Shown one piece after another: positions 12,133 through 24,047 of a stretch of DNA of 44,927 nucleotides (the first letter of the stretch is position 1; each line of letters opens with the position of its first letter). Origin of the DNA: a phage; sequence record PZ871095.1. One strand, given 5' to 3'. The position numbers were made by a program, and so were the translations under genes. The notes under the pieces are model-generated. The model made no database searches. It was not told where the DNA came from and saw only the letters and a list, made by a program, of their open reading frames with translations.

Positions 12133-14775
12133 ATGGCAGATCAAGCGGCTGGCATCACGCTAAAGGCGGATGTTGCACAAATCAGAACGGCAAATACTGT
12201 GCTGGACTCCTTCGCACAGAAATCCGAGAACACAGAAAACAAGGTTAAGAAATTAAACGACACCCTCGGCAAATCCAAAAAGGTGACGAGTGACGCCGCG
12301 GGCGGAATGGAGAAGCTGGCGACTGAATCGCAGCGCGCCGCCGATGGCATGACGAAACAGGAGCGACTTGCCAACAGGTTAGGCATGTCGACAAAAAACC
12401 TGGGCTTTGCCTCGCGTAACGCCGCATTCCAGTTACAGGATATCGCAGTTACGCTTGAGATGGGGATGCCAGTACACCGCGTTATGCTTCAGCAGTTACC
12501 GCAGTTAACTGGGGCGTTCGGCGGACTGGGTAACACGCTGCGTTATGTTGCGGGATTCCTCGGCCCAGTAGGGATCGGCCTTGCCGCCGTAACGGCAACG
12601 TTAGGCGTGGGCGTGGCAATTACGTCCCGCGCAGAGAACCAGGTCGCCGCGCTTAACAAGACGCTGGCGCTTTCCGGCAACATTTCCGGCCTGACGGCAA
12701 ACCAGATCCTGGTGCTATCCGAGAACGCCGAGCGCATGGGCGGGTCGTTCCGCAAGACGCGTGACACAATCCAGGCGCTGGCGGCGGCGGGTGTGAAAGC
12801 GGGTGGTGACTTCGGCGCACTGGCGAAGGTAGTGAATGACTTCGCGAAGGTGTCCAGCCAGCCGATCGAGGATGTAGTCGCGGCGGTGGCGAAGCTATCT
12901 ACCGACCCGGTAGGTGGCTTGCGAGCATTGGCTGATAAGTATCACGTCGTAAACGAAGCGCAGATCCAGCAGGTGCAGTCGCTCGTTGATGCGGGTCGTG
13001 AGACAGACGCAGTTGCGTTGGCTAACAAAACAGCCGCTGCGTCGTTCACCAGCATGACCAATGAAATCAAGTCCAACATGGGTACGCTTGAGCGGTCGAT
13101 GAACGTCGTCACATCGGCAGCTAAATCTATGTGGGATGCAATCCTGGATGTGGGCCGCGCGCAGTCCTCGAATGAGTCAGAGATGAAAGCGCGTGAGTCA
13201 TTGCAGCGCATGACCACGGCTTATTATGCCGAGATGAAAGCGGTAAACGCTGCCGGTGGGGTAATGACTGAAGCGCAGAAAGCACGTATTAACATGCTTT
13301 ACAGCGAACTGGTCGCCCAGGAAAAAGTGGTGGCGTCGCTCACCCTGCGTAATCGTGCGGAGCGAGACAACGCCCGCGCCGCAGACGAATCCGCAAAGGC
13401 GAACGAGGAGGCCAACCGCACTGCCCGTGACCGCGCCGCGTTCGAGAAGGAATACGCCACCAACGCTAAGAAGCGCGCCGACGAGATCGCCCGCCTCAAT
13501 TTGCTGAATAAGCGCGGCGTGATTGACGAGAAAGAGCTTGCCGAGGCGGTGAAGCAGGTAAACGAGCGTTACAAAGACCCCGCCCCGAAGAAGGCCGCCG
13601 CTGTTCGAGTCGATGCCGGGCTGAAAATGCTGGAAGTCGCGCGAAGCGAATTAGCCCAGCTTCGTGAGTCTGGGAAGCAGATCGAAGCCAACGCATCGAC
13701 GCAGACCAGAACGCAACGCGCGCAAGCGGCCCTTAACAAGCTGATTGCCGACAACGAGCAGTTAATCGCTGCGAGCAAAGAAAGGGCGCTGACGGCAGCA
13801 GAGAAGCAGCAATTAGTCGAGTTCGGGCGCGTGAAGGAAGTACGCGAGCAGATCGTCGAAGAAGCCAAATTGCTGGACGCAAAAGAGAAGCAGGTCAAGG
13901 CGCACGCGCAGATCGACGCCTTCGTTAAGAACCAGAACGCCGAGCTAAAAGCCACCGCGGCGGGCTATGCGCTTTCCACTCGCGAAGCGGCAAACCTGCG
14001 CGAAGAATTGCAGCTAATTGACCGCCTGAAGCGGGTTGGCGCTAACGATACCGATATTGACAAGGCGGTGTCTAAGCTGCGAGAAGTGCAGGAAGCACAG
14101 ACCGGCGCTAACGCCTCGTTATGGGATGGATTCAGTCGCGGGCTTAAGGATAGCGTGGATGAAATGGGTAACGGATATACGCAGATGGCGTCGCTCACGA
14201 AATTTACATTCAGCGCTATGCAGGACACGATGAACGAGTTTTTCGAGACTGGTAAGCTGAACGCAAAGGATATGGTTAAGTCCATCCTGAGCGAATTAAT
14301 CAAGCTGGCTACCTCGCAGGCGTTCAAGTCCATCGTTAGCGCTTTCGGTGGTGACGGCGGCAAAAACGGATTGTTCGGCGCTATCTTCTCTGGCCTCACT
14401 AAGAATGCGGACGGCGGAGCGTACACAGGCGGCAATCTCGCGGCCTATTCGGGGAAAGTGGTAAGCCAGCCTACCTTTTTCAGTTATGGCGTCCAGGCGT
14501 TCGCTAAGGGCGCTGGGTTGATGGGTGAGGCTGGACCCGAGGCCATCATGCCACTGAAGCGCGGGCCGGACGGGAAACTGGGCGTTGCCGCGTCTGGCGC
14601 AGGCGGTGGTATGGTCGTGACGACTAACGTTTACACGGGGACCGGTAAGACGGACACCAGTGTTAGCGGGCCAGACCCACGTACCGCGCAGGCGTTCGGC
14701 AAGCAAATCACCGAGGCGGTGAAGTCCGAGATCGTGAAAGCGACTAAACCAGGTGGTGTACTTTACAAACGATGA
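12133..14775 (+). CDS. tail tape measure protein
   Basis: 880 aa, long helical A/K/E/Q-rich protein with a glycine-rich hydrophobic segment; directly follows the chaperone genes. Confidence 0.9.
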   Translation: MADQAAGITLKADVAQIRTANTVLDSFAQKSENTENKVKKLNDTLGKSKKVTSDAAGGMEKLATESQRAADGMTKQERLANRLGMSTKNLGFASRNAAFQLQDIAVTLEMGMPVHRVMLQQLPQLTGAFGGLGNTLRYVAGFLGPVGIGLAAVTATLGVGVAITSRAENQVAALNKTLALSGNISGLTANQILVLSENAERMGGSFRKTRDTIQALAAAGVKAGGDFGALAKVVNDFAKVSSQPIEDVVAAVAKLSTDPVGGLRALADKYHVVNEAQIQQVQSLVDAGRETDAVALANKTAAASFTSMTNEIKSNMGTLERSMNVVTSAAKSMWDAILDVGRAQSSNESEMKARESLQRMTTAYYAEMKAVNAAGGVMTEAQKARINMLYSELVAQEKVVASLTLRNRAERDNARAADESAKANEEANRTARDRAAFEKEYATNAKKRADEIARLNLLNKRGVIDEKELAEAVKQVNERYKDPAPKKAAAVRVDAGLKMLEVARSELAQLRESGKQIEANASTQTRTQRAQAALNKLIADNEQLIAASKERALTAAEKQQLVEFGRVKEVREQIVEEAKLLDAKEKQVKAHAQIDAFVKNQNAELKATAAGYALSTREAANLREELQLIDRLKRVGANDTDIDKAVSKLREVQEAQTGANASLWDGFSRGLKDSVDEMGNGYTQMASLTKFTFSAMQDTMNEFFETGKLNAKDMVKSILSELIKLATSQAFKSIVSAFGGDGGKNGLFGAIFSGLTKNADGGAYTGGNLAAYSGKVVSQPTFFSYGVQAFAKGAGLMGEAGPEAIMPLKRGPDGKLGVAASGAGGGMVVTTNVYTGTGKTDTSVSGPDPRTAQAFGKQITEAVKSEIVKATKPGGVLYKR

Positions 14776-14809
14776 TAAAATGGCCCTCACTACAACGTGG
14801 GGGCTTTTT

Positions 14810-15409
14810 ATGTCACAAGGTACAATCACACTAACGAAAGGAAGTAAGACCGTCACGGGCGCGGGAACGGCGTTCCTTAGCGAGATCGGGAAGGTACTCG
14901 TATTCGCCCGCATCGACGGCAACGACTACACCGGCAAAATTGCGGCATTCAACTCGAACACGGTCATTACGCTGAAAGATAACTGGGCTGGGCCAACGAA
15001 ATCCGGTGCGGCATATGAGCTAATCGAAGCACACGACCCGCGATCAAACGAATGGCCCTATTACTGGCACATGCAATTGCAGGGCGGTGGCGACGTGCAG
15101 TTAGCTTTCCGGTCCGAGGAATTGCAATTCGGTAATGGCTACGGGCAGAACATCGCGGACGGCCCGAACGCCGAAACTAAACAGTTCCCCGTGCAATTCA
15201 TAGGGCTGACTACTGACAAGTGGTGCAACCCTAAACTGGTTTACAACTTCCTTCGCGGGCACTTCGTCAAGCCGTTTGTCGTCACCGCGCCGGATGGCGA
15301 AACAGGTTTATTCGTGGTCGAGCGTTCGAGCTTGTCGTACACGGACAACGGACACCTCACGGCAACCGTATCCGCCACCCTTAAGACTGCTATTGGATTC
15401 GTAAGATGA
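14810..15409 (+). CDS. minor tail protein (lambda M-like C-terminal region with N-terminal extension)
   Basis: 199 aa after the tape measure; C-terminal segment resembles lambda gpM; N-terminal ~70 aa resemble the tail fiber N-terminus (22293..). Confidence 0.6.
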   Translation: MSQGTITLTKGSKTVTGAGTAFLSEIGKVLVFARIDGNDYTGKIAAFNSNTVITLKDNWAGPTKSGAAYELIEAHDPRSNEWPYYWHMQLQGGGDVQLAFRSEELQFGNGYGQNIADGPNAETKQFPVQFIGLTTDKWCNPKLVYNFLRGHFVKPFVVTAPDGETGLFVVERSSLSYTDNGHLTATVSATLKTAIGFVR

Positions 15410-16194
15410 ATAAACTTTATCGCGAGGCGACGCGCTTTGACCCATCGGGTCGCGTTCGCCTGATTCACATTGACGCGCAGGACGTGGAACCAGGCGACGG
15501 TGCGATCGGCGCGGGCCATCACTATTTCCACTACTGCTTTATTCCGCACACTGCCGAGGATATTGCTGCCGCCGGTGGTGACGAGGATAAGCTAAAACCT
15601 AAATCCATCTTCTTCGGCGGGCAGGAGTTCGAATTTTGGCCCTTCGATTTGTCCGGCCTTAACTTCTCCACATCGACGGCGGCAGAACCGCAACTAACAA
15701 TCGTCGATATTGGCGGCATAATAACCCGGCTGTCGCTGAACCACGACCAGCTACTTGGCGCGAAGGTTGAGATCATTGATACGTTCGCGAAGTTCCTGGA
15801 CAACGGGGCAGATCCAGACCCGACGCAGAAACGAGTTCAGGAGTATTACATCGACTCGCAGGTCGGGCGCAATCCGGGCAAGCAAATTACCTTCGCACTA
15901 TCCTCGCCTGCGGATATGGAAGGGCTGGTCGTTCCCCGTCGCCAAATCATGAATATGTGCGAGTGGGCGCTCAACGGGAAGTACGCCAGCGGGGACGGGT
16001 GCACCTGGAACCTTGCGAAGCCTGGTATAAAGTATTATGACGAGCGGGGTAATGAAGTCATTGCGATGAATATGGACCGATGTGGCGGCTGTTTGTCCGA
16101 CTGTTATCTTCGATTTGGGCAAGGGCTTGCGGACCCGAAAGCGGCGGTGCTGGACTTCGGCGGCTTTCCTGGGTCCAGATTAATTAAGGGGTAG
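15406..16194 (+). CDS. minor tail protein (lambda L-like)
   Basis: 262 aa, overlaps the previous stop; C-terminal Cys cluster (CEWA...CTWN...CGGCLSDC) as in gpL-type proteins. Confidence 0.7.
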   Translation: MNKLYREATRFDPSGRVRLIHIDAQDVEPGDGAIGAGHHYFHYCFIPHTAEDIAAAGGDEDKLKPKSIFFGGQEFEFWPFDLSGLNFSTSTAAEPQLTIVDIGGIITRLSLNHDQLLGAKVEIIDTFAKFLDNGADPDPTQKRVQEYYIDSQVGRNPGKQITFALSSPADMEGLVVPRRQIMNMCEWALNGKYASGDGCTWNLAKPGIKYYDERGNEVIAMNMDRCGGCLSDCYLRFGQGLADPKAAVLDFGGFPGSRLIKG

Positions 16195-16196
16195 CC

Positions 16197-16937
16197 ATGT
16201 TAACGAAAAAGGTTAAAAGCGATATCGCCGCGCACGTTGCGGCGTGTCTGCCGGAAGAAGCCTGCGGCCTGGTGGTCATGGTGGGTCGTAGGCAAGTGTT
16301 CGTCCCATGTCTGAACGTATTTGAAGACCCGACCGGCGTGCGCTCACGCAAAGACGCGTTTACTATTAGTGATATGGCCTGGATGGATGCCGAGGATATG
16401 GGCGACGTCGTGCGCGTAGTCCACTCGCATCCGGGCCAGCGCGAGCTTACCCCATCACTGGGAGACGTTAACGGATGCAACGGCAGCGGCGTAGTCTGGA
16501 CCATCACTAACGAATATGGCGACTTTATCGAGATCGACCCTGAAGACCCGCCGCTGGTAGGCCGCCGATTTGTTCTCGGAATTACAGATTGTTATGGCCT
16601 CGTCATGGACTGGCACAAAAAGCAGGGCGTAAACCTGCCAGACTTCCGCGTGCCGTATAACTGGTGGGAGACAGGCGAAAATCTGTATATGGATAACTGG
16701 TACGGCGCGGGCTTCAGGGAATGCGAGGAGAATACGCCGGGGGCGATGGTCATCATGCAGATTAGCGCGCCAGTGCCTAACCACGCTGGGATATTCCTTC
16801 CGGGCAACCAACTACTACACCATATCTACGGCAGTCTGTCGAGCGTAGTCCCCTTCCGGGCAGGATTTTTCCGCGACAATGTGGTTAAATGGGTCCGTCA
16901 TAAAGACCTACCGGGGAATATCACAGAATGGCAATGA
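16197..16937 (+). CDS. tail assembly protein (lambda K-like, MPN/JAB plus NlpC/P60-like)
   Basis: 246 aa; HSHPG metal-binding motif typical of MPN/JAB domains; position in the M-L-K-I-J order. Confidence 0.75.
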   Translation: MLTKKVKSDIAAHVAACLPEEACGLVVMVGRRQVFVPCLNVFEDPTGVRSRKDAFTISDMAWMDAEDMGDVVRVVHSHPGQRELTPSLGDVNGCNGSGVVWTITNEYGDFIEIDPEDPPLVGRRFVLGITDCYGLVMDWHKKQGVNLPDFRVPYNWWETGENLYMDNWYGAGFRECEENTPGAMVIMQISAPVPNHAGIFLPGNQLLHHIYGSLSSVVPFRAGFFRDNVVKWVRHKDLPGNITEWQ

Positions 16938-17545
16938 CAACGTTTAAATTGTACGGCGTTTTGGGACGTCGATTCGGTAAAGTTCATAAGCTGGACTGCT
17001 TCACTCCGGGCGAGGGTATTACCGGCCTGTGCGTGAAGTTACCCGGCTTACAGGACTTTCTAATGTCAGCCCACCTGGACAATATGATGTTCAAGGTGCG
17101 CAAAGGCGACCACACGATGACCGGCTATGATGAGCTGGGTGAGTTCCACGGCAACCGCGTCGTCACCATCGCGCCGGTTATGACGGGCGCAAAAAGAGGG
17201 TTGGGACAATTGCTGGCGGGTGTCGCGATCGTAGTGGCGTCGTTCTATACGGGCGGACTTGCTACTGCCGCTTTCGGGGCTTCGGCTGCAACCGCTGCCG
17301 CTATCGGGACGGCGACGTTTTCGTTCGGGATGTCGATGGCGCTGGGTGGCGTTATGCAATTGCTGTCGCCACAACCGAAAGGATTGCAGACAAGGCAGGA
17401 CGTGGATAACAAGGCGTCGTATGCGTTCGGCGGCCCCGTAAACACTACCGCGCAAGGCACGGCTCTTGGTGTATTATGGGGCGAGCGTGAGATCGGCGGC
17501 GCTATTATTTCAGCCGGAATCGTAACCGAGGACTTGAACGAATGA
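16928..17545 (+). CDS. tail assembly protein (lambda I-like)
   Basis: 205 aa overlapping the K-like gene; glycine/alanine-rich hydrophobic C-terminal half; precedes the J-like gene. Confidence 0.65.
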   Translation: MAMTTFKLYGVLGRRFGKVHKLDCFTPGEGITGLCVKLPGLQDFLMSAHLDNMMFKVRKGDHTMTGYDELGEFHGNRVVTIAPVMTGAKRGLGQLLAGVAIVVASFYTGGLATAAFGASAATAAAIGTATFSFGMSMALGGVMQLLSPQPKGLQTRQDVDNKASYAFGGPVNTTAQGTALGVLWGEREIGGAIISAGIVTEDLNE

Positions 17546-20500
17546 CGATTATCTACGACGTCACAGGGCATAAAGGCGGCGGCGGAAAACAGCACACCCC
17601 ACAGGAGACGCCAGATAGCCTGCATTCGCTGGCTAAAATCCGCATCTTGCTTGCGCTGGGGGAAGGGGAATTCGAAAGTATTACCAGCGCCAGCGAATTG
17701 CGGCAGCGTGTTTACCTGGATGGAACGCCGATCCAGAACGCTGACTTGTCCGAAAACTTCCCTGGCGCGCGTGTGGAGTTCCGCCCCGGCACACAGCACC
17801 AGGATGTGATCCACGGATTTTCAGCGGTGGAAAGTGAGCAATCTGTCGGCGTAAAACTGGAAAACGGTACGCCGTGGGTACGCCAGATTAACGATACCAG
17901 TCTGGACGCCGTTCGCATTCGCATCGGAATTCCGGCCCTGTACACTAACGAAGATAATGGCGACCTGGTTGGCGGACGCATTGACTATAAGATCGTTGTG
18001 TATACGGATAACGCCGACCCGCGTGAGTTCAGATTCTCCGCCGTTGGTAAAACAATGTCGCTGTATGAGCGCGACCACCGCATCGAATTACCGCCGAACG
18101 TGAATACCGGCTGGCGCGTGGAGGTGCACCGCATAACGGCAGACTCCACATCGGCGAAAGTGGTTAATGATATCCGGGTGCAGTCCATCACTGAGATTAT
18201 TGACGCCCGCCTGCGTTACCCGCTAACCGCGCTGTTGTTTGTGGAGTTCGACGCCAAAGCGTTCCAGAACATCCCGCGCGTGTCCATCAAGTGCAAAGGT
18301 CGCAAAGTTCTAATACCGAACAACTACGACCCGATCAATCATACCTATTCCGGGGACTGGGACGGCACGTTTAAACGCGCATGGACGGATAACCCTGCGT
18401 GGCACTGGTACGATATTTGTATTACTGAGCGCTTCGGCCTCGGTCGGCGTATCAAACCGCAAATGCTAAACCGATACGCGCTCTACCAGATTGCGCAGCG
18501 CTGCGATCAGTTGGTCAGCGACGGCAACGGTGGTCGAGAAATCCGCTTTAAGAATGATATGTACATTCAGTCACAGACGGATGCCTGGACCGTGCTTAAG
18601 GATTTAGCCGCCATCTTTGCCGGTATGACCTGGTGGGGCAACCAGATGTTGAATATCGTCAGTGACCAGCCGGTCGCAGCGGTATCGCACACCATCACCA
18701 ACGCCTCGGTCATTGATGGGCGATTCGACTACGCATCTGGCAGCCAGAAAACTCGCTATTCCACATTCGCGGTAGCATACGGCAACCCGAAGAACCACTA
18801 TGAAGACGCCATTGCTACGGGGCAGCGTGTCGAACTGGTACGCCGCCATAAGATCAACCGTCTTGATATAACGGCGATCGGCTGTACGCGCGAGTCAGAA
18901 GCGCAACGCCGCGGGCACTGGGCGCTAATCTCAAACCAGCTTGACCAGCAAGTTAGTTTTAAGGTTGGCATGGAGGGGTTATTCTTTATCCCCGGTAGCG
19001 TAGTCGCGATCGCAGATACTAATATTTCTGGCGGATTCGAGACTCGTGGCGGTCGCCTGTTGTCGGACCCCGGAACGCGTACCGTGCTGAACACGGACAG
19101 CGAAATCACGTTCCGCCCTGGCGATAAGTTCATGGTGCGCACCGATAGCGGTAATGTGGAGACTCGCGAGATCGCCAACGTCAACGGCAACAAGGTAACT
19201 CTAAAAACCGCACTGGATGCCGACCCGATTCCGGACCAGCCGTTTTGCGTTGATGGCGACGATATCCAGTTGCAGAAGTTCCGCATCACCGACCTGGAAT
19301 ATGACGACTCTACCAGCACTTTTTCAGTGCGCGGGATCGAGTACAACGATAGCAAATACGATGCCGTTGATAATGGCGCTCGTCTTGACCCAGGCATCTT
19401 TACGCAAGTGCCTGACGGCGTAATGAAGGGGCCGGAGTCCGTGACCATCACCCCGTCGCAGATTTCATCGCAAGGCCAGCTAATCACCAACGTGGATATT
19501 GTTTTCCCGCCGGTGAAGGATGCCGTTGTATATGAAATCCAGTGGCGGCGTACCAGCCTGCAGAATATGGAAATCCAGTGGGGTAACGACTGGGTGAACA
19601 TTCCCCGCACGGCATCGAACGGTGCGCACATCCCGAACGTGTTTTCCGGAAACTATCAGGCGCGCGTTCGCGCAATCGGTATGGGCGAAATTTCATCCCC
19701 GTGGGTGTCGTCTGCCATCACGCCGATCGAAGGTCGTCTCGGTGGGCTTAACGCGCCTATCATCACAAACGCTATTCCGGGCCTCCACCAAATTTTGTGG
19801 AAGTGGAACCACAACAACGCCGCGACGGATATCTCTTACACCGAGCTTGAAGTGCGCAAGCGGGGTGAAACGGAATGGAAGTTCTTGACCAACGTCCCAT
19901 ATCCGGGGTCGGACTATGCGCAAACGTCGCTGGAGTTCGGGATCTACCAGCAGTTGCGCGCCCGCGTAGCGGATAAAATCGGCAACCTGTCGGACTGGTC
20001 CGCCCCGTTTGAAGGCCAGGTGAGTGACAAAGTTGACGAGTACATGAAGGGGTTGGACGACGAGTTCTTGACTTCCGAGGACGGTAAACGCTTCCAGGAA
20101 GCGATCGACACCATGCCGCAAGGCATTTATGAAGCCATGCTCACAGACGCGCAGCAATTGTTTAACGCCCGCGCCGAGTACCAGGGGATTTACGCAGAAA
20201 TCAAGGTGGCGTATAACGTGGCTGCGGATGCCCACAAGGCGGTAGCGCAACTTGAGACGTTGATCGGCACGCGCCTTGACGATGCGGAAGCGGCGATCCA
20301 CACGTTGCAGACCGCGCAAAGCACGCACGAACAAGCGTTCGCCCAGTACCAACAAACTGTTGCCGCTAAGTTCGGGGAGCAGGAAGCTGCCATCCAGCAG
20401 GTACAAACGGCAACGGCAGACGTAGCGGGCGCGCTGGCGGAGTACAAGACCCAAGTAGCGGCGCAGTTCGGGCAGCAGTCCGCAGCTATCGAGCAGAAGA

Positions 20501-20961
20501 TGACGTCTTCGTTTAACCATACTGGCGGTAGTGCCACATACAGCCTTAAGGCTGGCGTGACGTATAACGGGACTTACTATGATGCCGGTATGCAGCTTTC
20601 AGTTGTGGCGGAAGGTGGCGCGGTTAAATCCCGCATCGCGTTCAAGGCGGACCAGTTCTACATCATGCACCCGTCGAATGGGTCGCTTTCGTCCGCGTTT
20701 ATCGTCGACGGCGGGCAGGTGTACATCGACACGGCGCGCATCAAGAACGCGTCCATCAACTTCGGGCAGATCACAGACACGCTGCAATCGAATAACTACG
20801 ACGGCAGCACGCGCGGATGGCGCTTAGGTAAGGATGGAACGTTTATTAACCTGGGGACCGGAAGCGGTGGTGGTACAAAGCTGACCAACACCAACTACAG
20901 CGTTAAAGACGCGAACGGTGTTTTACGCGTGCAAATTGGCGAGCTTACTGGTCGCTGGTAG
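17542..20961 (+). CDS. host specificity / central tail fiber protein (lambda J-like)
   Basis: 1139 aa, largest tail-tip ORF; ATG overlaps the I-like stop (GAATGA); A/Q-rich repeated helical segment near the C-terminus. Confidence 0.85.
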   Translation: MTIIYDVTGHKGGGGKQHTPQETPDSLHSLAKIRILLALGEGEFESITSASELRQRVYLDGTPIQNADLSENFPGARVEFRPGTQHQDVIHGFSAVESEQSVGVKLENGTPWVRQINDTSLDAVRIRIGIPALYTNEDNGDLVGGRIDYKIVVYTDNADPREFRFSAVGKTMSLYERDHRIELPPNVNTGWRVEVHRITADSTSAKVVNDIRVQSITEIIDARLRYPLTALLFVEFDAKAFQNIPRVSIKCKGRKVLIPNNYDPINHTYSGDWDGTFKRAWTDNPAWHWYDICITERFGLGRRIKPQMLNRYALYQIAQRCDQLVSDGNGGREIRFKNDMYIQSQTDAWTVLKDLAAIFAGMTWWGNQMLNIVSDQPVAAVSHTITNASVIDGRFDYASGSQKTRYSTFAVAYGNPKNHYEDAIATGQRVELVRRHKINRLDITAIGCTRESEAQRRGHWALISNQLDQQVSFKVGMEGLFFIPGSVVAIADTNISGGFETRGGRLLSDPGTRTVLNTDSEITFRPGDKFMVRTDSGNVETREIANVNGNKVTLKTALDADPIPDQPFCVDGDDIQLQKFRITDLEYDDSTSTFSVRGIEYNDSKYDAVDNGARLDPGIFTQVPDGVMKGPESVTITPSQISSQGQLITNVDIVFPPVKDAVVYEIQWRRTSLQNMEIQWGNDWVNIPRTASNGAHIPNVFSGNYQARVRAIGMGEISSPWVSSAITPIEGRLGGLNAPIITNAIPGLHQILWKWNHNNAATDISYTELEVRKRGETEWKFLTNVPYPGSDYAQTSLEFGIYQQLRARVADKIGNLSDWSAPFEGQVSDKVDEYMKGLDDEFLTSEDGKRFQEAIDTMPQGIYEAMLTDAQQLFNARAEYQGIYAEIKVAYNVAADAHKAVAQLETLIGTRLDDAEAAIHTLQTAQSTHEQAFAQYQQTVAAKFGEQEAAIQQVQTATADVAGALAEYKTQVAAQFGQQSAAIEQKMTSSFNHTGGSATYSLKAGVTYNGTYYDAGMQLSVVAEGGAVKSRIAFKADQFYIMHPSNGSLSSAFIVDGGQVYIDTARIKNASINFGQITDTLQSNNYDGSTRGWRLGKDGTFINLGTGSGGGTKLTNTNYSVKDANGVLRVQIGELTGRW

Positions 20962-20997: not shown

Positions 20998-21300
20998 ATG
21001 GCATTCGGTATCGCAACGTGGGACGCGCAAGGACGCCCCAACAACTACGGCATTAAACCGGTAAGCGTGATCGGAAGGATTCATCTTGCGGAAGGACAAA
21101 AATCAGGCGCATGGTCATTCCCGGTACCGGCGGGGATGAAGGTCGGATATGTGGTCGCCCTGGATAAAGGCGCGGTCGGGCCGGGACGCAGAATAACCGC
21201 CAGCGGGAACACTATCACGGTTTCCGCGGCAAGTGCGGTAGGTGGCGGGGTTTACTCCGCATCTGAATGTGACGTTATTGTTTTTGTGGAGCGAGCATAA
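20998..21300 (+). CDS. hypothetical protein (tail-associated by position)
   Basis: 100 aa, ATG with GAGG ribosome-binding site, between the J-like gene and the fiber locus. Confidence 0.55.
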   Translation: MAFGIATWDAQGRPNNYGIKPVSVIGRIHLAEGQKSGAWSFPVPAGMKVGYVVALDKGAVGPGRRITASGNTITVSAASAVGGGVYSASECDVIVFVERA

Positions 21301-21974
21301 TGGCTAATTACGGCGCGCTGATTGACTTACCAAACGGCAACCCGTTTATCACGCCAGAATCGACGCCGTTTTGTCTATTCCGCCGTGTGGTTGTTGGGTC
21401 TTCGGCTAACGGCACTGCGCAGTCGGCGGCTGCCGATATTAATTTGGGGGGTGACTACCCTGCAATAGCGTTTGTGAAAACTACGCACACCGCCCAGCCG
21501 ACCGTCGTAGGGTCTTCTCGCGTTGGTAATGTGGTGAAGGTGAGCGCCAGCAATCCATTTGGGCAAGGATTCACGATGACAGCATACATCTTTGCCATAT
21601 TCCCACAGACCCTTCCGCGGTGGGGCTTCGCTATTTGGGATAAGACGGGGAGGCTAGTGCTGACGAACGAGAGCCGGGTACTAAGCGATTTAGTTACCGT
21701 CGGATCGCCAGGCGCTAACGGGGGAATTAACATTGACCAGACGCTAAACGGCAGCTACGCCGTCGCTCCGGGCATATTGGGGTCTACGCTGATCCGGTTT
21801 TTTGTGCAGGGCCAGCCACAGGTAATATCGGTAACGGCGTACACGGGGGCCAGATTTGATGGGTCGCGAACGCGTATATCGGCAGCGTCGTCGGGGAACG
21901 CCACGGGGGATGTGGTGGGGTATACTAACAACGGCAACGCGATTATGGCGATTAACACTGCCAATTATGATTGA
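21300..21974 (+). CDS. hypothetical protein (tail-associated by position)
   Basis: 224 aa, ATG overlapping the upstream stop (TAATG); Gly/Ser/Thr/Asn-rich, fiber-like composition. Confidence 0.6.
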   Translation: MANYGALIDLPNGNPFITPESTPFCLFRRVVVGSSANGTAQSAAADINLGGDYPAIAFVKTTHTAQPTVVGSSRVGNVVKVSASNPFGQGFTMTAYIFAIFPQTLPRWGFAIWDKTGRLVLTNESRVLSDLVTVGSPGANGGINIDQTLNGSYAVAPGILGSTLIRFFVQGQPQVISVTAYTGARFDGSRTRISAASSGNATGDVVGYTNNGNAIMAINTANYD

Positions 21975-21977
21975 AGA

Positions 21978-22000
21978 AGGCCCCGAAAGGGGCCTATTTG
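21978..22000. terminator. hairpin terminator between convergent genes (AGGCCCC-gaaa-GGGGCCT)
   Basis: 7-bp GC stem between the plus-strand gene ending 21974 and the minus-strand gene ending 21994; T-runs are weak on both strands. Confidence 0.5.
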
Positions 22001-22212
22001 CAGGTTGTGCTTTTGAAATGGTCAACTGACACATACTGGAAGTTAAACGGGTATCCCGCCCTGAGCATTTTGTGGCCGCTAAAATCCGCGACCCCAAACA
22101 CGGGGACTGAGTAATCCATGCCGCTATTCTGGTACGTCGCGTCGCAGACTTTAGCTGGCATGTTGGCACAACCGGACAAAAGAACTGCACAAATCATAAT
22201 TAAAGTTTTCAT
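21994..22212 (-). CDS. small outer-membrane lipoprotein (Cor-like superinfection-exclusion candidate)
   Basis: 72 aa from ATG 22212 (AGGGGATGA ribosome-binding site); lipoprotein signal MKTLIMICAVLLSGC with lipobox LLSGC; sole minus-strand gene among tail genes. Confidence 0.55.
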   Translation of the reverse strand: MKTLIMICAVLLSGCANMPAKVCDATYQNSGMDYSVPVFGVADFSGHKMLRAGYPFNFQYVSVDHFKSTTCK

Positions 22213-22292
22213 GGTATCATCCCCTATATTTGGTTGAGTTTTAGTATTACACCGCTCAACCAGGATTGCAACCAATTTATGAGGATTTAGCT

Positions 22293-24047
22293 ATGGCGGC
22301 GGGTACTCTATCCGTAACGAATAACAGCAAGGCGGTTGTTGGGGTTGGCACGACGTTTACCGCGCTGAAGGCTGGCGACTTCCTGTCGCTGGTAGTGGGG
22401 CAAGTCCCTTACACTGTCGCTATTGCATCCGTAGAAAGTGACACCGCGCTTACGCTGGTGCTGCCGTTCGATGGCCCAACGGCAACCGGCCTCGCATGGG
22501 ATAGCGTGGCGCGCGATACAATGTCGCTTGCGACTATGGGCGTAACCGTCCAGGCGCAGAAAGCATTGCGCTTGCTGATTGCAGATGAGAACAACTGGCG
22601 CGCAATCTTCGGCGACGATGAAGAAATCACAGTGACGTTACCTAACGGGCAGGTTATGCAGGGCATGTCATGGGGCTATCTGTCACAGTTGATGAAACAG
22701 ATCGACCCCGTTGAGATGCGCAACCTGCAACAACAAGCCGCCGCATCTGAAGCAGCCGCGCAAGGATTTCGTAACGAGGCTGAAGGATTTCGAGACGGCG
22801 CGCAAGGATACCGCAACGAGGCGCTCCAATTCCGCACCGACTGCGAAGGGCTGAAGAACGAAACGACAAACCTTCGCAACGATGCGCTCCAATTCCGCAC
22901 CGACTGCGAAGGGCTGAAGAACGAAACGACAAACCTTCGCAACGATGCTAACACAGCTAAGACTGGCGCGGAGACGGCACGCGATCAGGCGCAGAACATC
23001 GCCGACGGTATGGACCCTGGACAGTATATGCAGAAATCTGCAAACCTGAGCGATGTAGTGGATAAGGCGCAAGGCCGCGCGAATATGGGTCTTGGCACTA
23101 CAGATGCCGTGGAGTTTGGTGGGGCCACCCTCAATGGTCACACCCGCATCAATGGCTCGTTGCTGTTGGGGCGTAACCAGTGGGATGGGTCTAGCTGGGG
23201 GAGCTACGGACTACAATCGTCATTCGTCATCATGTCGCCGGATGGAGACTCCGAGCCGGGATTTTACATCAGGCCGCTATCGGGTGCGCCTGGGTACGCA
23301 ACGTCGTTCACCTATAATCTCGCGATTAATCTTTTCAGCACCAGTGCTCGCATCAAGGCGGTTAACTTCTCATCCAGCACTACGACTATGGGATATAACG
23401 AGATGTGGTCACGTGCATGTTTCCAGGGGCAGCCATACGAGGCCCAGGCGGGGGTTGAGAACTACCAATCGCTTGTCGCAGGTACTTGCGGTACGGTATC
23501 ACACGGATTTTACGGTGGCGTTGCGTTCGGCATGATGACTGCTGGCGGGGATGGGTGGCCTGTCGGTCAGATCTCGATCGGCACGCAGGACAGAGCCGCT
23601 GATGGCACTATCGGATTACAAATGCACTTCCGTTTCCATTCATCCGGTAACATTACGTATACGGGGCCGGCGGGGTCGGGGTCATTCCAGCAAATCCCGG
23701 CATCTGACCGCAACATTAAGCATGATATTAAAGACGATAAATCCAGCACAGCATACGATAACATTAGAGCCATTCGATTCCGTAATTTCGTATTTAATGA
23801 TGACGAGCAGGAGCGTATTCGTCGCGGGGTTATCGCACAGGAGCTTGAAGAAATCGACCCGCTTTATGTTAAGCACCGCGAATACCACAACATGGAGCTT
23901 AACGGGCCGAAGATTACTCGACTGGAGCTTGACACGACGCCGCTGTTACTGGACACAATGCGAGCGTTGCAGGATACGATTAAGCAGGTGGAGGAGTTGA
24001 AGGCCGAGATCGCAGCTATGAAACAGGTGGAGGAGTTGAAGAAATAA
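22293..24047 (+). CDS. tail fiber protein with C-terminal intramolecular chaperone (S74 peptidase-like) domain
   Basis: 584 aa from ATG 22293 (GAGGA ribosome-binding site); SDRNIKHDIKD... segment characteristic of autoproteolytic fiber chaperone domains; internal exact tandem repeat. Confidence 0.8.
   Translation: MAAGTLSVTNNSKAVVGVGTTFTALKAGDFLSLVVGQVPYTVAIASVESDTALTLVLPFDGPTATGLAWDSVARDTMSLATMGVTVQAQKALRLLIADENNWRAIFGDDEEITVTLPNGQVMQGMSWGYLSQLMKQIDPVEMRNLQQQAAASEAAAQGFRNEAEGFRDGAQGYRNEALQFRTDCEGLKNETTNLRNDALQFRTDCEGLKNETTNLRNDANTAKTGAETARDQAQNIADGMDPGQYMQKSANLSDVVDKAQGRANMGLGTTDAVEFGGATLNGHTRINGSLLLGRNQWDGSSWGSYGLQSSFVIMSPDGDSEPGFYIRPLSGAPGYATSFTYNLAINLFSTSARIKAVNFSSSTTTMGYNEMWSRACFQGQPYEAQAGVENYQSLVAGTCGTVSHGFYGGVAFGMMTAGGDGWPVGQISIGTQDRAADGTIGLQMHFRFHSSGNITYTGPAGSGSFQQIPASDRNIKHDIKDDKSSTAYDNIRAIRFRNFVFNDDEQERIRRGVIAQELEEIDPLYVKHREYHNMELNGPKITRLELDTTPLLLDTMRALQDTIKQVEELKAEIAAMKQVEELKK
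22821..22946. repeat. exact 63-bp tandem duplication (2 copies) inside the tail fiber gene
   Basis: gcgctccaattccgcaccgactgcgaagggctgaagaacgaaacgacaaaccttcgcaacgat appears twice back to back, encoding ALQFRTDCEGLKNETTNLRND twice. Confidence 0.9.

What the first reader, a model, noticed from the sequence alone, without database searches (positions are those of the whole stretch)
14810..15020. Shared ~70-aa N-terminal module between the M-like minor tail protein and the tail fiber
The N-termini of 14810..15409 (MSQGTITLTKGSKTVTGAGTAFLSEIGK...) and 22293..24047 (MAAGTLSVTNNSKAVVGVGTTFTALKAG...) align over about 70 residues with conserved GT, SK, GxGTxF, YT, TL and GPT positions. Their C-termini are unrelated. 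This suggests a shared attachment or oligomerisation domain shuffled between a baseplate-proximal protein and the fiber.
Basis: seen in the sequence. Interest (0 to 1): 0.45.

Follow-up and report, generated by a model that had tools for sequence, protein, structure and literature searches.

The report
Fibre-anchor domain fused to distal tail protein
The tail-ring protein and the side fibre of this E. coli phage (a Dhillonvirus) really do begin with the same small ~73-residue domain, a widespread fibre-anchoring module; the copy on the ring protein is a lineage-specific add-on that close relatives do without, so the finding is real but only moderately unusual.

Summary
Confirmed. ORFs 14810..15409 (199 aa) and 22293..24047 (584 aa) share an N-terminal domain: 34% identity over 79 aa, BLASTP E 4e-8, z 16.7 against shuffles. 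Their C-termini are unrelated.

The window is a Dhillonvirus (HK578-like coliphage). The first protein is the distal tail protein (lambda gpM type, 95% identical to PDB 23gd 'distal tail protein gp20'). The second is the lateral tail fibre.

The shared domain is an all-beta module of about 73 aa with no Pfam model. A profile finds it in more than 6,000 protein clusters. Most are fibre N-termini; some are tandem arrays in surface-type proteins. Its only solved fibre homologue is the F-type pyocin side-fibre N-domain, which docks the fibre onto the central fibre.

The copy on the distal tail protein is a fusion seen only in core Dhillonviruses. All 11 related loci with a plain 115-130 aa distal tail protein still encode the same type of fibre anchor, so the fibre does not need it. 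The copy is under purifying selection (dN/dS 0.13). It resembles foreign fibre N-domains more than the phage's own.

Best reading: an accessory, exposed decoration of the tail-tip ring, probably adhesive. The rival is a built-in collar for the fibres. This is a new variant of a known kind, of modest interest.

The parts
14810..15028 (+). N-terminal fibre-anchor-type beta domain (aa 1-73) of the distal tail protein; this is the reported feature
   Evidence: BLASTP to the fibre N-terminus E 4e-8; z 16.7 against shuffles; PHROG fibre families hit at aa 1-72; matches the F2-pyocin side-fibre N-domain (25ve_A res 5-81) at E 1e-4, and with the profile at 7e-8; AF2 pLDDT 77-92, 6-7 beta strands
15029..15055 (+). 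Short linker (aa 74-82, EAHDPRSNE) between the added domain and the tail-tube-fold core
   Evidence: Relatives with a short distal tail protein start at the equivalent of aa ~80 (alignments); low pLDDT from aa 75
15056..15409 (+). Lambda gpM / T1 gp37-type distal tail protein core (aa 83-199) plus stop codon
22293..22508 (+). N-terminal anchor domain (aa 1-72) of the lateral tail fibre, the second copy of the module
   Evidence: the NTD HMM hits it at 1.6e-38
22509..22727 (+). Rest of the conserved fibre anchor (aa 73-145: stem helix plus a small domain), conserved among Dhillonviruses before the variable shaft
   Evidence: 16 type-A loci are 95% identical over aa 76-135 and diverge after ~aa 145, with total fibre lengths of 538-893 aa; PHROG families align to aa 1-135
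22728..24047 (+). Variable distal fibre: T7 gp17-like coiled coil (with a 63-bp tandem duplication at 22812..22948), fibre tip, and Peptidase_S74 intramolecular chaperone (aa 471-526)
   Evidence: PF13884 at 44 bits; T5 pb1-type C-terminus 8hqz_d at E 1.6e-13 and T7 gp17 at 1.4e-5; tandem repeat
17542..20961 (+). J-like central fibre; its helical shaft (about aa 838-990, 20053..20511) is the candidate docking site for the fibre anchor, by analogy with F-pyocins
   Evidence: PDB 23gd_D 'J-like tail tip protein gp24'; F2-pyocin central fibre at E 2e-223; alignment borders show the pyocin has ~97 extra residues (848-976) that include its dock; 96-97% identical in relatives lacking the DTP N-domain
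15406..16194 (+). L-like hub protein (262 aa). In the relatives L001-L003, which lack the DTP N-domain, this protein instead carries a ~150-aa insertion
   Evidence: PF05100; PDB 23gd_C; the 415-aa form in L001-L003

Best explanation
Shown: the window is a Dhillonvirus with a lambda-like tail-tip cassette (tape measure, M, L, K, I, J, receptor-binding cassette, lateral fibre). Both N-termini belong to one family of ~73-residue all-beta domains. This is the usual N-terminal anchor of a very large family of side fibres in N15-, HK225- and Dhillonvirus-type phages and in F-type pyocins, where the F2-pyocin structure paper calls it an 'OB domain'. In the fibre it heads a conserved ~145-aa anchor, followed by a variable shaft, a tip and an S74 chaperone. 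In the distal tail protein (DTP), a diverged copy is joined by a 9-residue linker to a gpM-type tail-tube-fold core. Among the sequences examined this fusion occurs only in the core Dhillonvirus clade. It is under purifying selection and is not needed by the fibre, because relatives with plain DTPs keep the same anchor.

Inferred: the fibre anchor docks on a component common to all these phages. The most likely site is the J central-fibre shaft, as in F-pyocins.

Inferred: because the N-terminus of lambda gpM lies on the outside of the ring, where the Stf collar touches it, six DTP-borne copies should sit on the outer rim of the DTP hexamer at the tube/tip junction.

Committed mechanism (about 0.4): the DTP copy is an accessory, exposed decoration that works like the OB domain of T5 pb9, the carbohydrate-binding modules of 'evolved' Dits, or the Ig-like domain of lambda gpV. 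It would give weak, multivalent, reversible contacts with cell-surface polymers that help hold and orient the tail tip. Such decorations are swapped or lost freely between lineages.
For: Identity of the phage and proteins.

Homology of the two N-termini.

Family size and architectures: 6,213 cluster representatives at E<=1e-3. Of the top 155, 132 have one copy at the extreme N-terminus of fibre-sized proteins and 23 have 3-13 internal copies in PKD/NHL/SdrD_B/C25 proteins. Only the Dhillonvirus DTP cluster combines the domain with Phage_min_tail.

Link to a solved docking domain: 25ve_A at E 1e-4 with the single sequence and 7e-8 with the profile. The role of that domain is given in PMC13455828, PMC12874032 and bioRxiv 10.64898/2026.02.24.707460.

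The fusion is lineage-specific: 158 phage records have the full-length form, all at >=80% identity, and every other DTP matches only aa ~84-199. BFVD holds a single two-domain match.

The copy is dispensable for the fibre: all 11 related loci where the DTP could be read have a 115-130 aa form and an NTD-bearing fibre downstream of J. L001-L003 have J 96-97% identical and a near-identical fibre anchor, but a DTP core only 67% identical.

Decorations are interchangeable: L001-L003 instead have a ~150-aa beta-rich insertion in L, while L019, L024 and L025 have neither decoration.

Selection: dN/dS is 0.13 for the DTP N-domain, 0.04 for the core and 0.07 for the fibre N-domain. Variable sites number 25/75 in the N-domain against 17/124 in the core.

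Not a copy of the resident fibre: 33% identity to its own fibre against up to 47% to foreign fibre N-domains.

Position on the ring: lambda gpM K2 and W6 contact the Stf collar (PMC12617516). The fused domain ends just before the equivalent W86, by my manual comparison with the lambda gpM sequence recalled from memory, not computed here.

Against: No direct evidence of any ligand for the DTP copy. Adhesion is inferred only from analogy and from the domain's company in surface-type proteins. The only experimentally shown activity of this domain family is fibre docking with side-by-side ring contacts, which favours the collar rival. The pyocin docking segment is not alignable in this J, so where the fibre actually docks in phages is unknown. 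The coordinates of 23gd, which would show whether the N-domain is ordered and what it touches, could not be read here. The AF2 model is confident only for the N-domain (mean pLDDT 66.7). In L001-L003 the fibre genes run off the contig ends, so only their anchors were seen.
Confidence: 0.4

Rival explanations
1. Built-in collar. The six DTP-borne copies are permanent subunits of a ring of anchor domains around the tube/tip junction. Fibre N-domains (for example two from each of three trimers) slot between them by the same side-by-side contacts seen in the pyocin ring, giving a 12-membered collar like those of Ur-lambda Stf or T5 p132. The DTP copy would then be an auxiliary docking or ordering device for the lateral fibres.
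For: The only demonstrated function of the family is docking with lateral N-domain contacts, two per trimer in the ring and one left peripheral. The DTP N-terminus lies where lambda's 12-mer collar touches gpM. DTPs are the usual fibre platform in siphophages. The pyocin docking segment (res ~950-961) falls in ~97 residues that this J lacks, and the pyocin papers call that attachment mode unique. The domain is under purifying selection.
Against: All 11 related loci with a readable DTP lack the DTP copy yet keep the same anchor, including near-identical anchors in L001-L003. No co-variation is visible between the two copies. No fibre chain accompanies gp20 in PDB 23gd. A six-membered pyocin ring need not use the same interface as a 12-mer.
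Confidence: 0.25
2. Obligatory shared attachment domain. The fibre is held on the virion through its N-domain binding the homologous N-domain of the M-like protein, and it cannot attach without it.
For: Homology of the two domains, and their position on a baseplate-proximal protein and on the fibre.
Against: The natural variants listed above: short DTPs with the same fibre anchor in L001-L003, L019, L024, L025, L027, HK225, SPN3UB, KLB16 and Midgardsormr38. F-pyocins also dock the homologous fibre domain with a DTP that lacks the domain.
Confidence: 0.05
3. Structural brace. The DTP N-domain binds the last tube ring or neighbouring DTP subunits, simply stabilising the tube/tip junction or assisting assembly, with no role in fibres or host contact.
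For: Short linker and outer-rim position; purifying selection; collars and decoration domains can stabilise tails (general knowledge of lambda gpV and T5).
Against: Sister lineages with a closely similar tape measure, K, I and J assemble without it. It evolves three times faster than the core, which is unusual for a packing interface.
Confidence: 0.15
4. Chance or compositional similarity, or a recent internal duplication within this genome.
For: Both regions are rich in G, T, S and V.
Against: z 16.7 against shuffles, reciprocal profile hits and structural superposition exclude chance. 46% DNA identity and closer foreign relatives exclude a recent duplication.
Confidence: 0.01

Closest known systems
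F-type pyocin side-fibre N-terminal 'OB' domain (PyoF13 / PA0643 / PA0646; PDB 25ve, 25vj)
   Same: Sequence-level homologue of both window copies (profile E 7e-8, residues 5-79). Same position at the extreme N-terminus of a trimeric side fibre encoded downstream of a J-like central fibre. The pyocin tail tip is the closest solved relative of this J outside its own genus (E 2e-223).
   Different: The pyocin DTP (113 aa) has no such domain. The pyocin docks the domain on an acidic kink of the central-fibre shaft, within ~97 residues that this J lacks. Nothing is known experimentally about docking in the phage.
T5 pb9 distal tail protein (tail-tube-fold domain plus OB-fold decoration domain; PDB 4JMQ)
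Ur-lambda Stf N-terminal collar domain and the T5 p132 / DT57C LtfC collars
   Same: Small beta domains at fibre N-termini, or on dedicated proteins, that ring the tube/DTP junction in 12 copies and anchor side fibres. They contact the N-terminus of gpM.
   Different: A different domain family: no Pfam phage_tail_N/PF08400 match was returned. In those phages no collar subunit is part of the DTP polypeptide.
'Evolved' Dits and the Sf11 gp17 DTP with adaptor or extra domains
   Same: Lineage-specific accessory domains grafted on a conserved DTP core, used for adhesion or for docking receptor-binding proteins (for Sf11; the carbohydrate-binding modules of lactococcal and Lactobacillus Dits are from my own knowledge).
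   Different: Those additions are C-terminal or inserted, and are CBM/galectin-like or helical. Here the addition is N-terminal and homologous to the phage's own class of fibre anchor.
PDB 23gd, tail tip of a closely related Dhillonvirus (gp20 DTP, gp21 hub, gp24 J-like)
   Same: gp20 is 190/199 identical to the window protein, and gp21 and gp24 match L and J over their full lengths. The protein itself therefore already has a deposited structure.
   Different: No paper describing it was found in the library. The entry is not in the fold libraries (cut-off April 2026). It contains no chain matching the fibre.

Membership tests
Lambda gpM-type distal tail protein (Pfam Phage_min_tail, PF05939) | Profile match above the curated threshold | tested here: met
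   44.2 bits against a cut-off of 39, aa 86-192
Lambda gpM-type distal tail protein (Pfam Phage_min_tail, PF05939) | Tail-tube fold like solved DTPs | tested here: met
Lambda gpM-type distal tail protein (Pfam Phage_min_tail, PF05939) | Gene sits between the tape measure and the L-like hub gene | tested here: met
   Tape measure 12133..14775, DTP 14810..15409, L 15406..16194
Lambda gpM-type distal tail protein (Pfam Phage_min_tail, PF05939) | Forms the hexameric ring between tube and hub | not testable with these tools
   Only implied by the name and chain count (2 per C3 unit) in PDB 23gd
F-pyocin-type side-fibre N-terminal anchor ('OB') domain | Sequence homology to the solved pyocin domain | tested here: met
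   DTP copy against 25ve_A E 1e-4. A profile of DTP and fibre copies gives E 7e-8, residues 5-79. The fibre sequence alone did not reach 25ve_A.
F-pyocin-type side-fibre N-terminal anchor ('OB') domain | Small all-beta barrel fold | tested here: met
F-pyocin-type side-fibre N-terminal anchor ('OB') domain | Located at the extreme N-terminus of a trimeric side fibre encoded after the J-like gene | tested here: met
   Met for the fibre (22293..). For the DTP copy this feature is NOT met, because that copy sits on a hexameric ring protein.
F-pyocin-type side-fibre N-terminal anchor ('OB') domain | Docks on the kinked acidic segment of the central-fibre coiled coil | tested here: inconclusive
   J has a helical shaft, but the pyocin segment 848-976 that holds the dock has only 32 counterpart residues in J. 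No complex prediction was possible.
Lambda Stf-type collar domain (Pfam phage_tail_N, PF08400) | Profile match | tested here: not met
   No Pfam family at E<=10 for either N-terminus
T5 pb9-type decorated DTP | Extra OB-like domain structurally matching pb9 domain B | tested here: inconclusive
Tail fibre with intramolecular chaperone (Peptidase_S74) | PF13884 at the C-terminus | tested here: met
   44 bits against a cut-off of 22, aa 471-526; T5 pb1-type C-terminus at E 1.6e-13

The most novel reading that the evidence does not exclude
The six DTP-borne domains and six fibre N-domains (two from each of three fibre trimers) interdigitate into a hetero-dodecameric collar at the tube/tip junction. 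That would be a collar half encoded by the ring protein itself. Dhillonviruses would then attach pyocin-type fibres at the lambda/T5 collar position rather than on the central fibre, and the number of fibres would be set by how many collar slots the DTP pre-fills.
Probability: 0.2. Interest if true: 0.6.

Novelty: new variant of a known kind. Interest (0 to 1): 0.35.

Why it matters
The result names and delimits a very common tail-fibre anchor domain that has no Pfam or NCBIfam model, although a profile finds more than 6,000 protein clusters carrying it. It also links Dhillonvirus, N15 and HK225-type lateral fibres to the only structures in which this domain has been seen at work, the F-type pyocins.

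It shows that the same module has been recruited once onto the distal tail protein. Natural variants exist with the module, with a different decoration on the hub protein, or with neither. These variants form a ready-made comparison set for asking where these fibres dock and what tail-tip decorations do. That question matters for engineering the host range of small coliphages and tailocins.

If the collar reading were right, it would add a new way of building a fibre collar.

Tried and rejected
1. The first AF2 run of the DTP, with a 14-sequence alignment, gave mean pLDDT 58 and was unusable. A 37-sequence alignment with foreign fibre N-termini rescued only the N-domain.

3. Four literature searches for the paper behind PDB 23gd found nothing. 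The LptDE/Oekolampad preprint does not treat the tail tip.

4. I tried to retrieve the pyocin central-fibre sequence through a J homology search, to inspect the dock motif. The top 120 of 7,760 hits were all enterobacterial.

5. Co-occurrence of the fibre anchor with PF09327 in J held in 5/5 extra phages. I dropped it as a test because the window's J C-terminus also weakly matches a lambda J fragment, so the region does not appear specific to phages with this anchor.

6. Pfam and NCBIfam give no model for the N-domain. Sub-threshold 'Phage_attach' hits in the tandem-repeat proteins were not pursued.

7. Charge-matching between the fibre stem and the J shaft, by analogy with F7 residues R30, K80 and R87, was looked at by eye. 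It was inconclusive and is not used.

Full report
**1.

The two ORFs are present as stated: 14810..15409 (199 aa) and 22293..24047 (584 aa). BLASTP aligns them from residue 1 over 79 residues, with 34% identity, 53% positives, one gap and E 4e-8. A Smith-Waterman score of 102 for the first 85 residues compares with 25.6 +/- 4.6 (maximum 52) in 5,000 shuffles, giving z 16.7. The remaining parts score at chance (z 0.9).

Each N-terminus alone also hits the PHROG family of the other protein. At DNA level the two copies are only 46% identical.

**2. What the two proteins are**

The window is about 93% identical over this region to Dhillonvirus coliphages such as Gluttony, Lust, Pride, jat and EC115. 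The distal tail protein alone is 98.5% identical to that of HK578. The region is a lambda-like tail-tip cassette:

- tape measure, 12133..14775
- M-like protein, 14810..15409
- L, 15406..16194
- K, 16197..16937
- I, 16928..17545
- J, 17542..20961
- a receptor-binding cassette
- the lateral fibre, 22293..24047

The M-like protein matches Pfam Phage_min_tail only at aa 86-192, with 44.2 bits against a cut-off of 39. It is 190/199 identical to PDB 23gd chain B, 'Distal tail protein gp20'. The same entry holds near-identical L ('hub protein gp21') and J ('J-like tail tip protein gp24').

The fibre has a T7 gp17-like coiled coil, a T5 pb1-like C-terminus and a Peptidase_S74 chaperone. The BASEL papers describe Dhillonvirus lateral fibres as O-antigen-targeting, with N-terminal anchor domains (PMC11990801).

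**3. What the shared module is**

No Pfam or NCBIfam model covers it. A profile of six N-termini was scored against 1.84 billion cluster representatives. It finds 6,213 proteins at E<=1e-3 and 648 at E<=1e-10.

Among the best 155 proteins:

- 132 carry one copy at the extreme N-terminus of fibre-sized proteins (median 396 aa).
- 23 carry 3-13 internal or tandem copies in 600-2,900-aa proteins with PKD, NHL, SdrD_B or C25-peptidase domains.
- Only the Dhillonvirus cluster joins the domain to Phage_min_tail.

The tandem repeats keep the same GT / S / GxGTxF / Y / DT-LTL / G-T-SG pattern. The 'conserved positions' are therefore fold signatures of the family, not a specific interface.

Only two solved structures contain the domain by sequence: 23gd (this distal tail protein) and 25ve/25vj, the F2-pyocin side fibre (profile E 7e-8, residues 5-79).

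**4. What is known about the solved homologue**

Three 2026 cryo-EM studies of F-type pyocins agree on the role of the side-fibre N-domain (residues 2-76, called an OB domain). It attaches three fibre trimers to a kinked, acidic stretch (about residues 950-961) of the coiled-coil shaft of the central fibre.

- The pyocin distal tail protein has no such domain.

Sources: PMC13455828; bioRxiv 10.64898/2026.02.24.707460; PMC12874032.

The window's J is a close relative of the pyocin central fibre (E 2e-223). However, the two align as 7-859 to 5-847 and 892-1102 to 977-1187. The pyocin therefore has about 97 extra residues, and these include its dock. Whether phage fibres of this type dock on J is thus open. 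The T1 structure lacked fibres (PMC11945409).

**5. The comparative test**

I collected 27 related loci.

- Fifteen IMG/VR Dhillonviruses, like the window, have the 199-aa fused protein and a 262-aa L.
- Three metagenomic variants (L001-L003) have tape measure, K, I and J 96-99% identical to the window, and a fibre anchor nearly identical to that of fused-type loci such as L015. Their distal tail protein is 123 aa without the N-domain, and its core is only 67% identical. Their L is 415 aa with a ~150-aa insertion.
- Sister lineages (J 72-78% identical: L019, L024, L025) and a more distant one (L027, J ~50% identical) have 117-125-aa distal tail proteins and plain L.
- HK225, SPN3UB, KLB16 and Midgardsormr38 have 115-130-aa distal tail proteins.
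- L026 is cut upstream of this gene, so it could not be assessed there.

Every one of the 27 loci has a fibre with this N-domain downstream of J.

In the phage collection the full-length fusion occurs in 158 records, all at >=80% identity. Every other match to the M-type core covers only aa ~84-199.

The conclusions from these comparisons are:

- The fusion is a derived trait of core Dhillonviruses.
- The fibre anchor does not depend on it.
- Peripheral decorations of the M-L module are exchangeable.

**6. Evolution of the DTP copy**

Among 16 fused loci the N-domain is 91.6% identical on average, with 25/75 variable sites. The core is 97.0% identical (17/124 variable sites) and the fibre N-domain 93.9%. 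dN/dS is 0.13 for the DTP N-domain, 0.04 for the core and 0.07 for the fibre N-domain.

The DTP copy is therefore functional but less constrained, as expected for an exposed domain. It is 33% identical to the resident fibre's domain but up to 47% identical to N-domains of other fibres. One of the closest, P0045, is from Citrobacter koseri. In all, 124 of 263 family instances score higher than the phage's own fibre. It is not a recent copy of the resident fibre gene.

**7. Where it sits, and how it probably works**

In Ur-lambda, twelve Stf N-domains form a collar at the gpV/gpM junction and touch gpM K2 and W6 (PMC12617516). The N-terminus of an M-type protein is therefore on the outer rim.

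In the window the extra domain ends nine residues before the WPYYW motif. By my manual comparison with the lambda gpM sequence (recalled from memory, not aligned here), the last W of that motif (W86) corresponds to gpM W6. Six copies should therefore crown the ring at the collar position. This step is inferred.

Two readings remain.

- **(a) An accessory decoration**, analogous to T5 pb9's OB domain, evolved-Dit carbohydrate-binding modules or lambda gpV's Ig-like domain, giving weak multivalent contacts with the cell surface. This fits four observations: the domain is dispensable, it is replaced by another beta-rich insertion in L, it is absent in sister lineages, and it keeps company with adhesin-type domains. 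I give it about 0.4.
- **(b) A built-in half-collar** into which fibre N-domains slot. This fits three observations: the family's only demonstrated activity is docking with ring contacts, the position matches the collar, and this J lacks the pyocin dock. It is weakened by the short-DTP relatives. I give it about 0.2-0.25.

An obligatory attachment role is essentially excluded. A purely structural brace gets about 0.15.

**8. Comparison with what is known, and novelty**

The fibre is an ordinary member of the pyocin/N15/Dhillonvirus fibre class. The distal tail protein is a gpM-type protein with an unusual N-terminal graft. Decorated distal tail proteins are a known kind (T5 pb9, evolved Dits, Sf11 gp17). 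A near-identical protein already has a deposited structure (23gd), though I found no paper for it.

What appears new is the sequence-level identification of the graft as a fibre-anchor domain, its restriction to one clade, and the natural with/without series. The verdict is a real feature, a new variant of a known kind, and of modest interest (0.35).

**9. Limits**

- No multimer prediction was available.
- The coordinates of 23gd and 25ve could not be read.
- Only the top 150 of the 6,213 family hits could be inspected.
- The AF2 core and linker are of low confidence.
- The fibre genes of L001-L003 are truncated by contig ends.

Noticed in passing
window 14782..14809: A terminator-like hairpin (9-bp stem with 6 G-C pairs, followed by TTTTT) ends one base before the ATG of the distal tail protein gene. 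RNA fold -20.4 kcal/mol, z -4.9 against shuffles. The same arrangement precedes the short DTP gene in L001 (9970..10001). It may attenuate tail-tip genes relative to the tape measure.
   Followed up: partly
window 22812..22948: A 63-bp tandem duplication (2.2 copies, 98% match) inside the fibre gene repeats the 21-aa unit ALQFRTDCEGLKNETTNLRND in the T7 gp17-like coiled coil. It looks like a recent length change of the fibre shaft.
   Followed up: partly
L001 10362..11609 (also L002, L003): In metagenomic Dhillonvirus variants without the DTP N-domain, the L-like hub protein is 415 aa instead of 262 aa. The ~150-aa insertion (aa ~55-205) matches aa 502-617 of the roseophage R4C 'Megatron' protein (8gtc_M) at E 1.7e-4. 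In these loci the two decorations do not occur together.
   Followed up: partly
proteins P0016-P0026, P0038, P0042, P0052 and others: The fibre-anchor domain family also occurs as 3-13 tandem or internal copies in large proteins with PKD, NHL, SdrD_B or Peptidase_C25 domains. One is annotated as a cyanobacterial 'baseplate assembly protein'. The family has more than 6,000 cluster representatives but no Pfam or NCBIfam model.
   Followed up: partly
window 17542..20961: The J-like protein is far closer to the F2-pyocin central fibre (E 2e-223) and to T1 gp33 (2e-203) than to lambda J (1e-86). The pyocin protein has ~97 extra residues (848-976) in the shaft, which is where its side fibres dock.
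   Followed up: partly
window 14753..14809: An in-frame GTG at 14753 would give a 218-aa form that overlaps the end of the tape measure gene, and some records annotate it that way (P0001, JLBYU60). The deposited gp20 chain of 23gd is 199 aa, consistent with the ATG at 14810.
   Followed up: partly
window 20998..22275 and the same position in L004-L018: The cassette between J and the fibre is swapped among close relatives. orf100 and orf224 are 100% and 99.6% identical in L011, L013 and L015, and 53-72% identical in L005, L010 and L016. In L001-L003 and L025 they are replaced by a minus-strand DUF6453 gene plus a lipoprotein gene; in the other fused-type loci orf100/orf224 had no match and the content there was not examined. 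The J C-terminus (after aa ~1099) changes with the cassette.
   Followed up: no
protein P0011 (Escherichia phage vB_Eco_Maverick): In this Dhillonvirus the conserved fibre anchor is a separate 171-aa ORF ending in a short coiled coil. This suggests a split or truncated lateral fibre.
   Followed up: no
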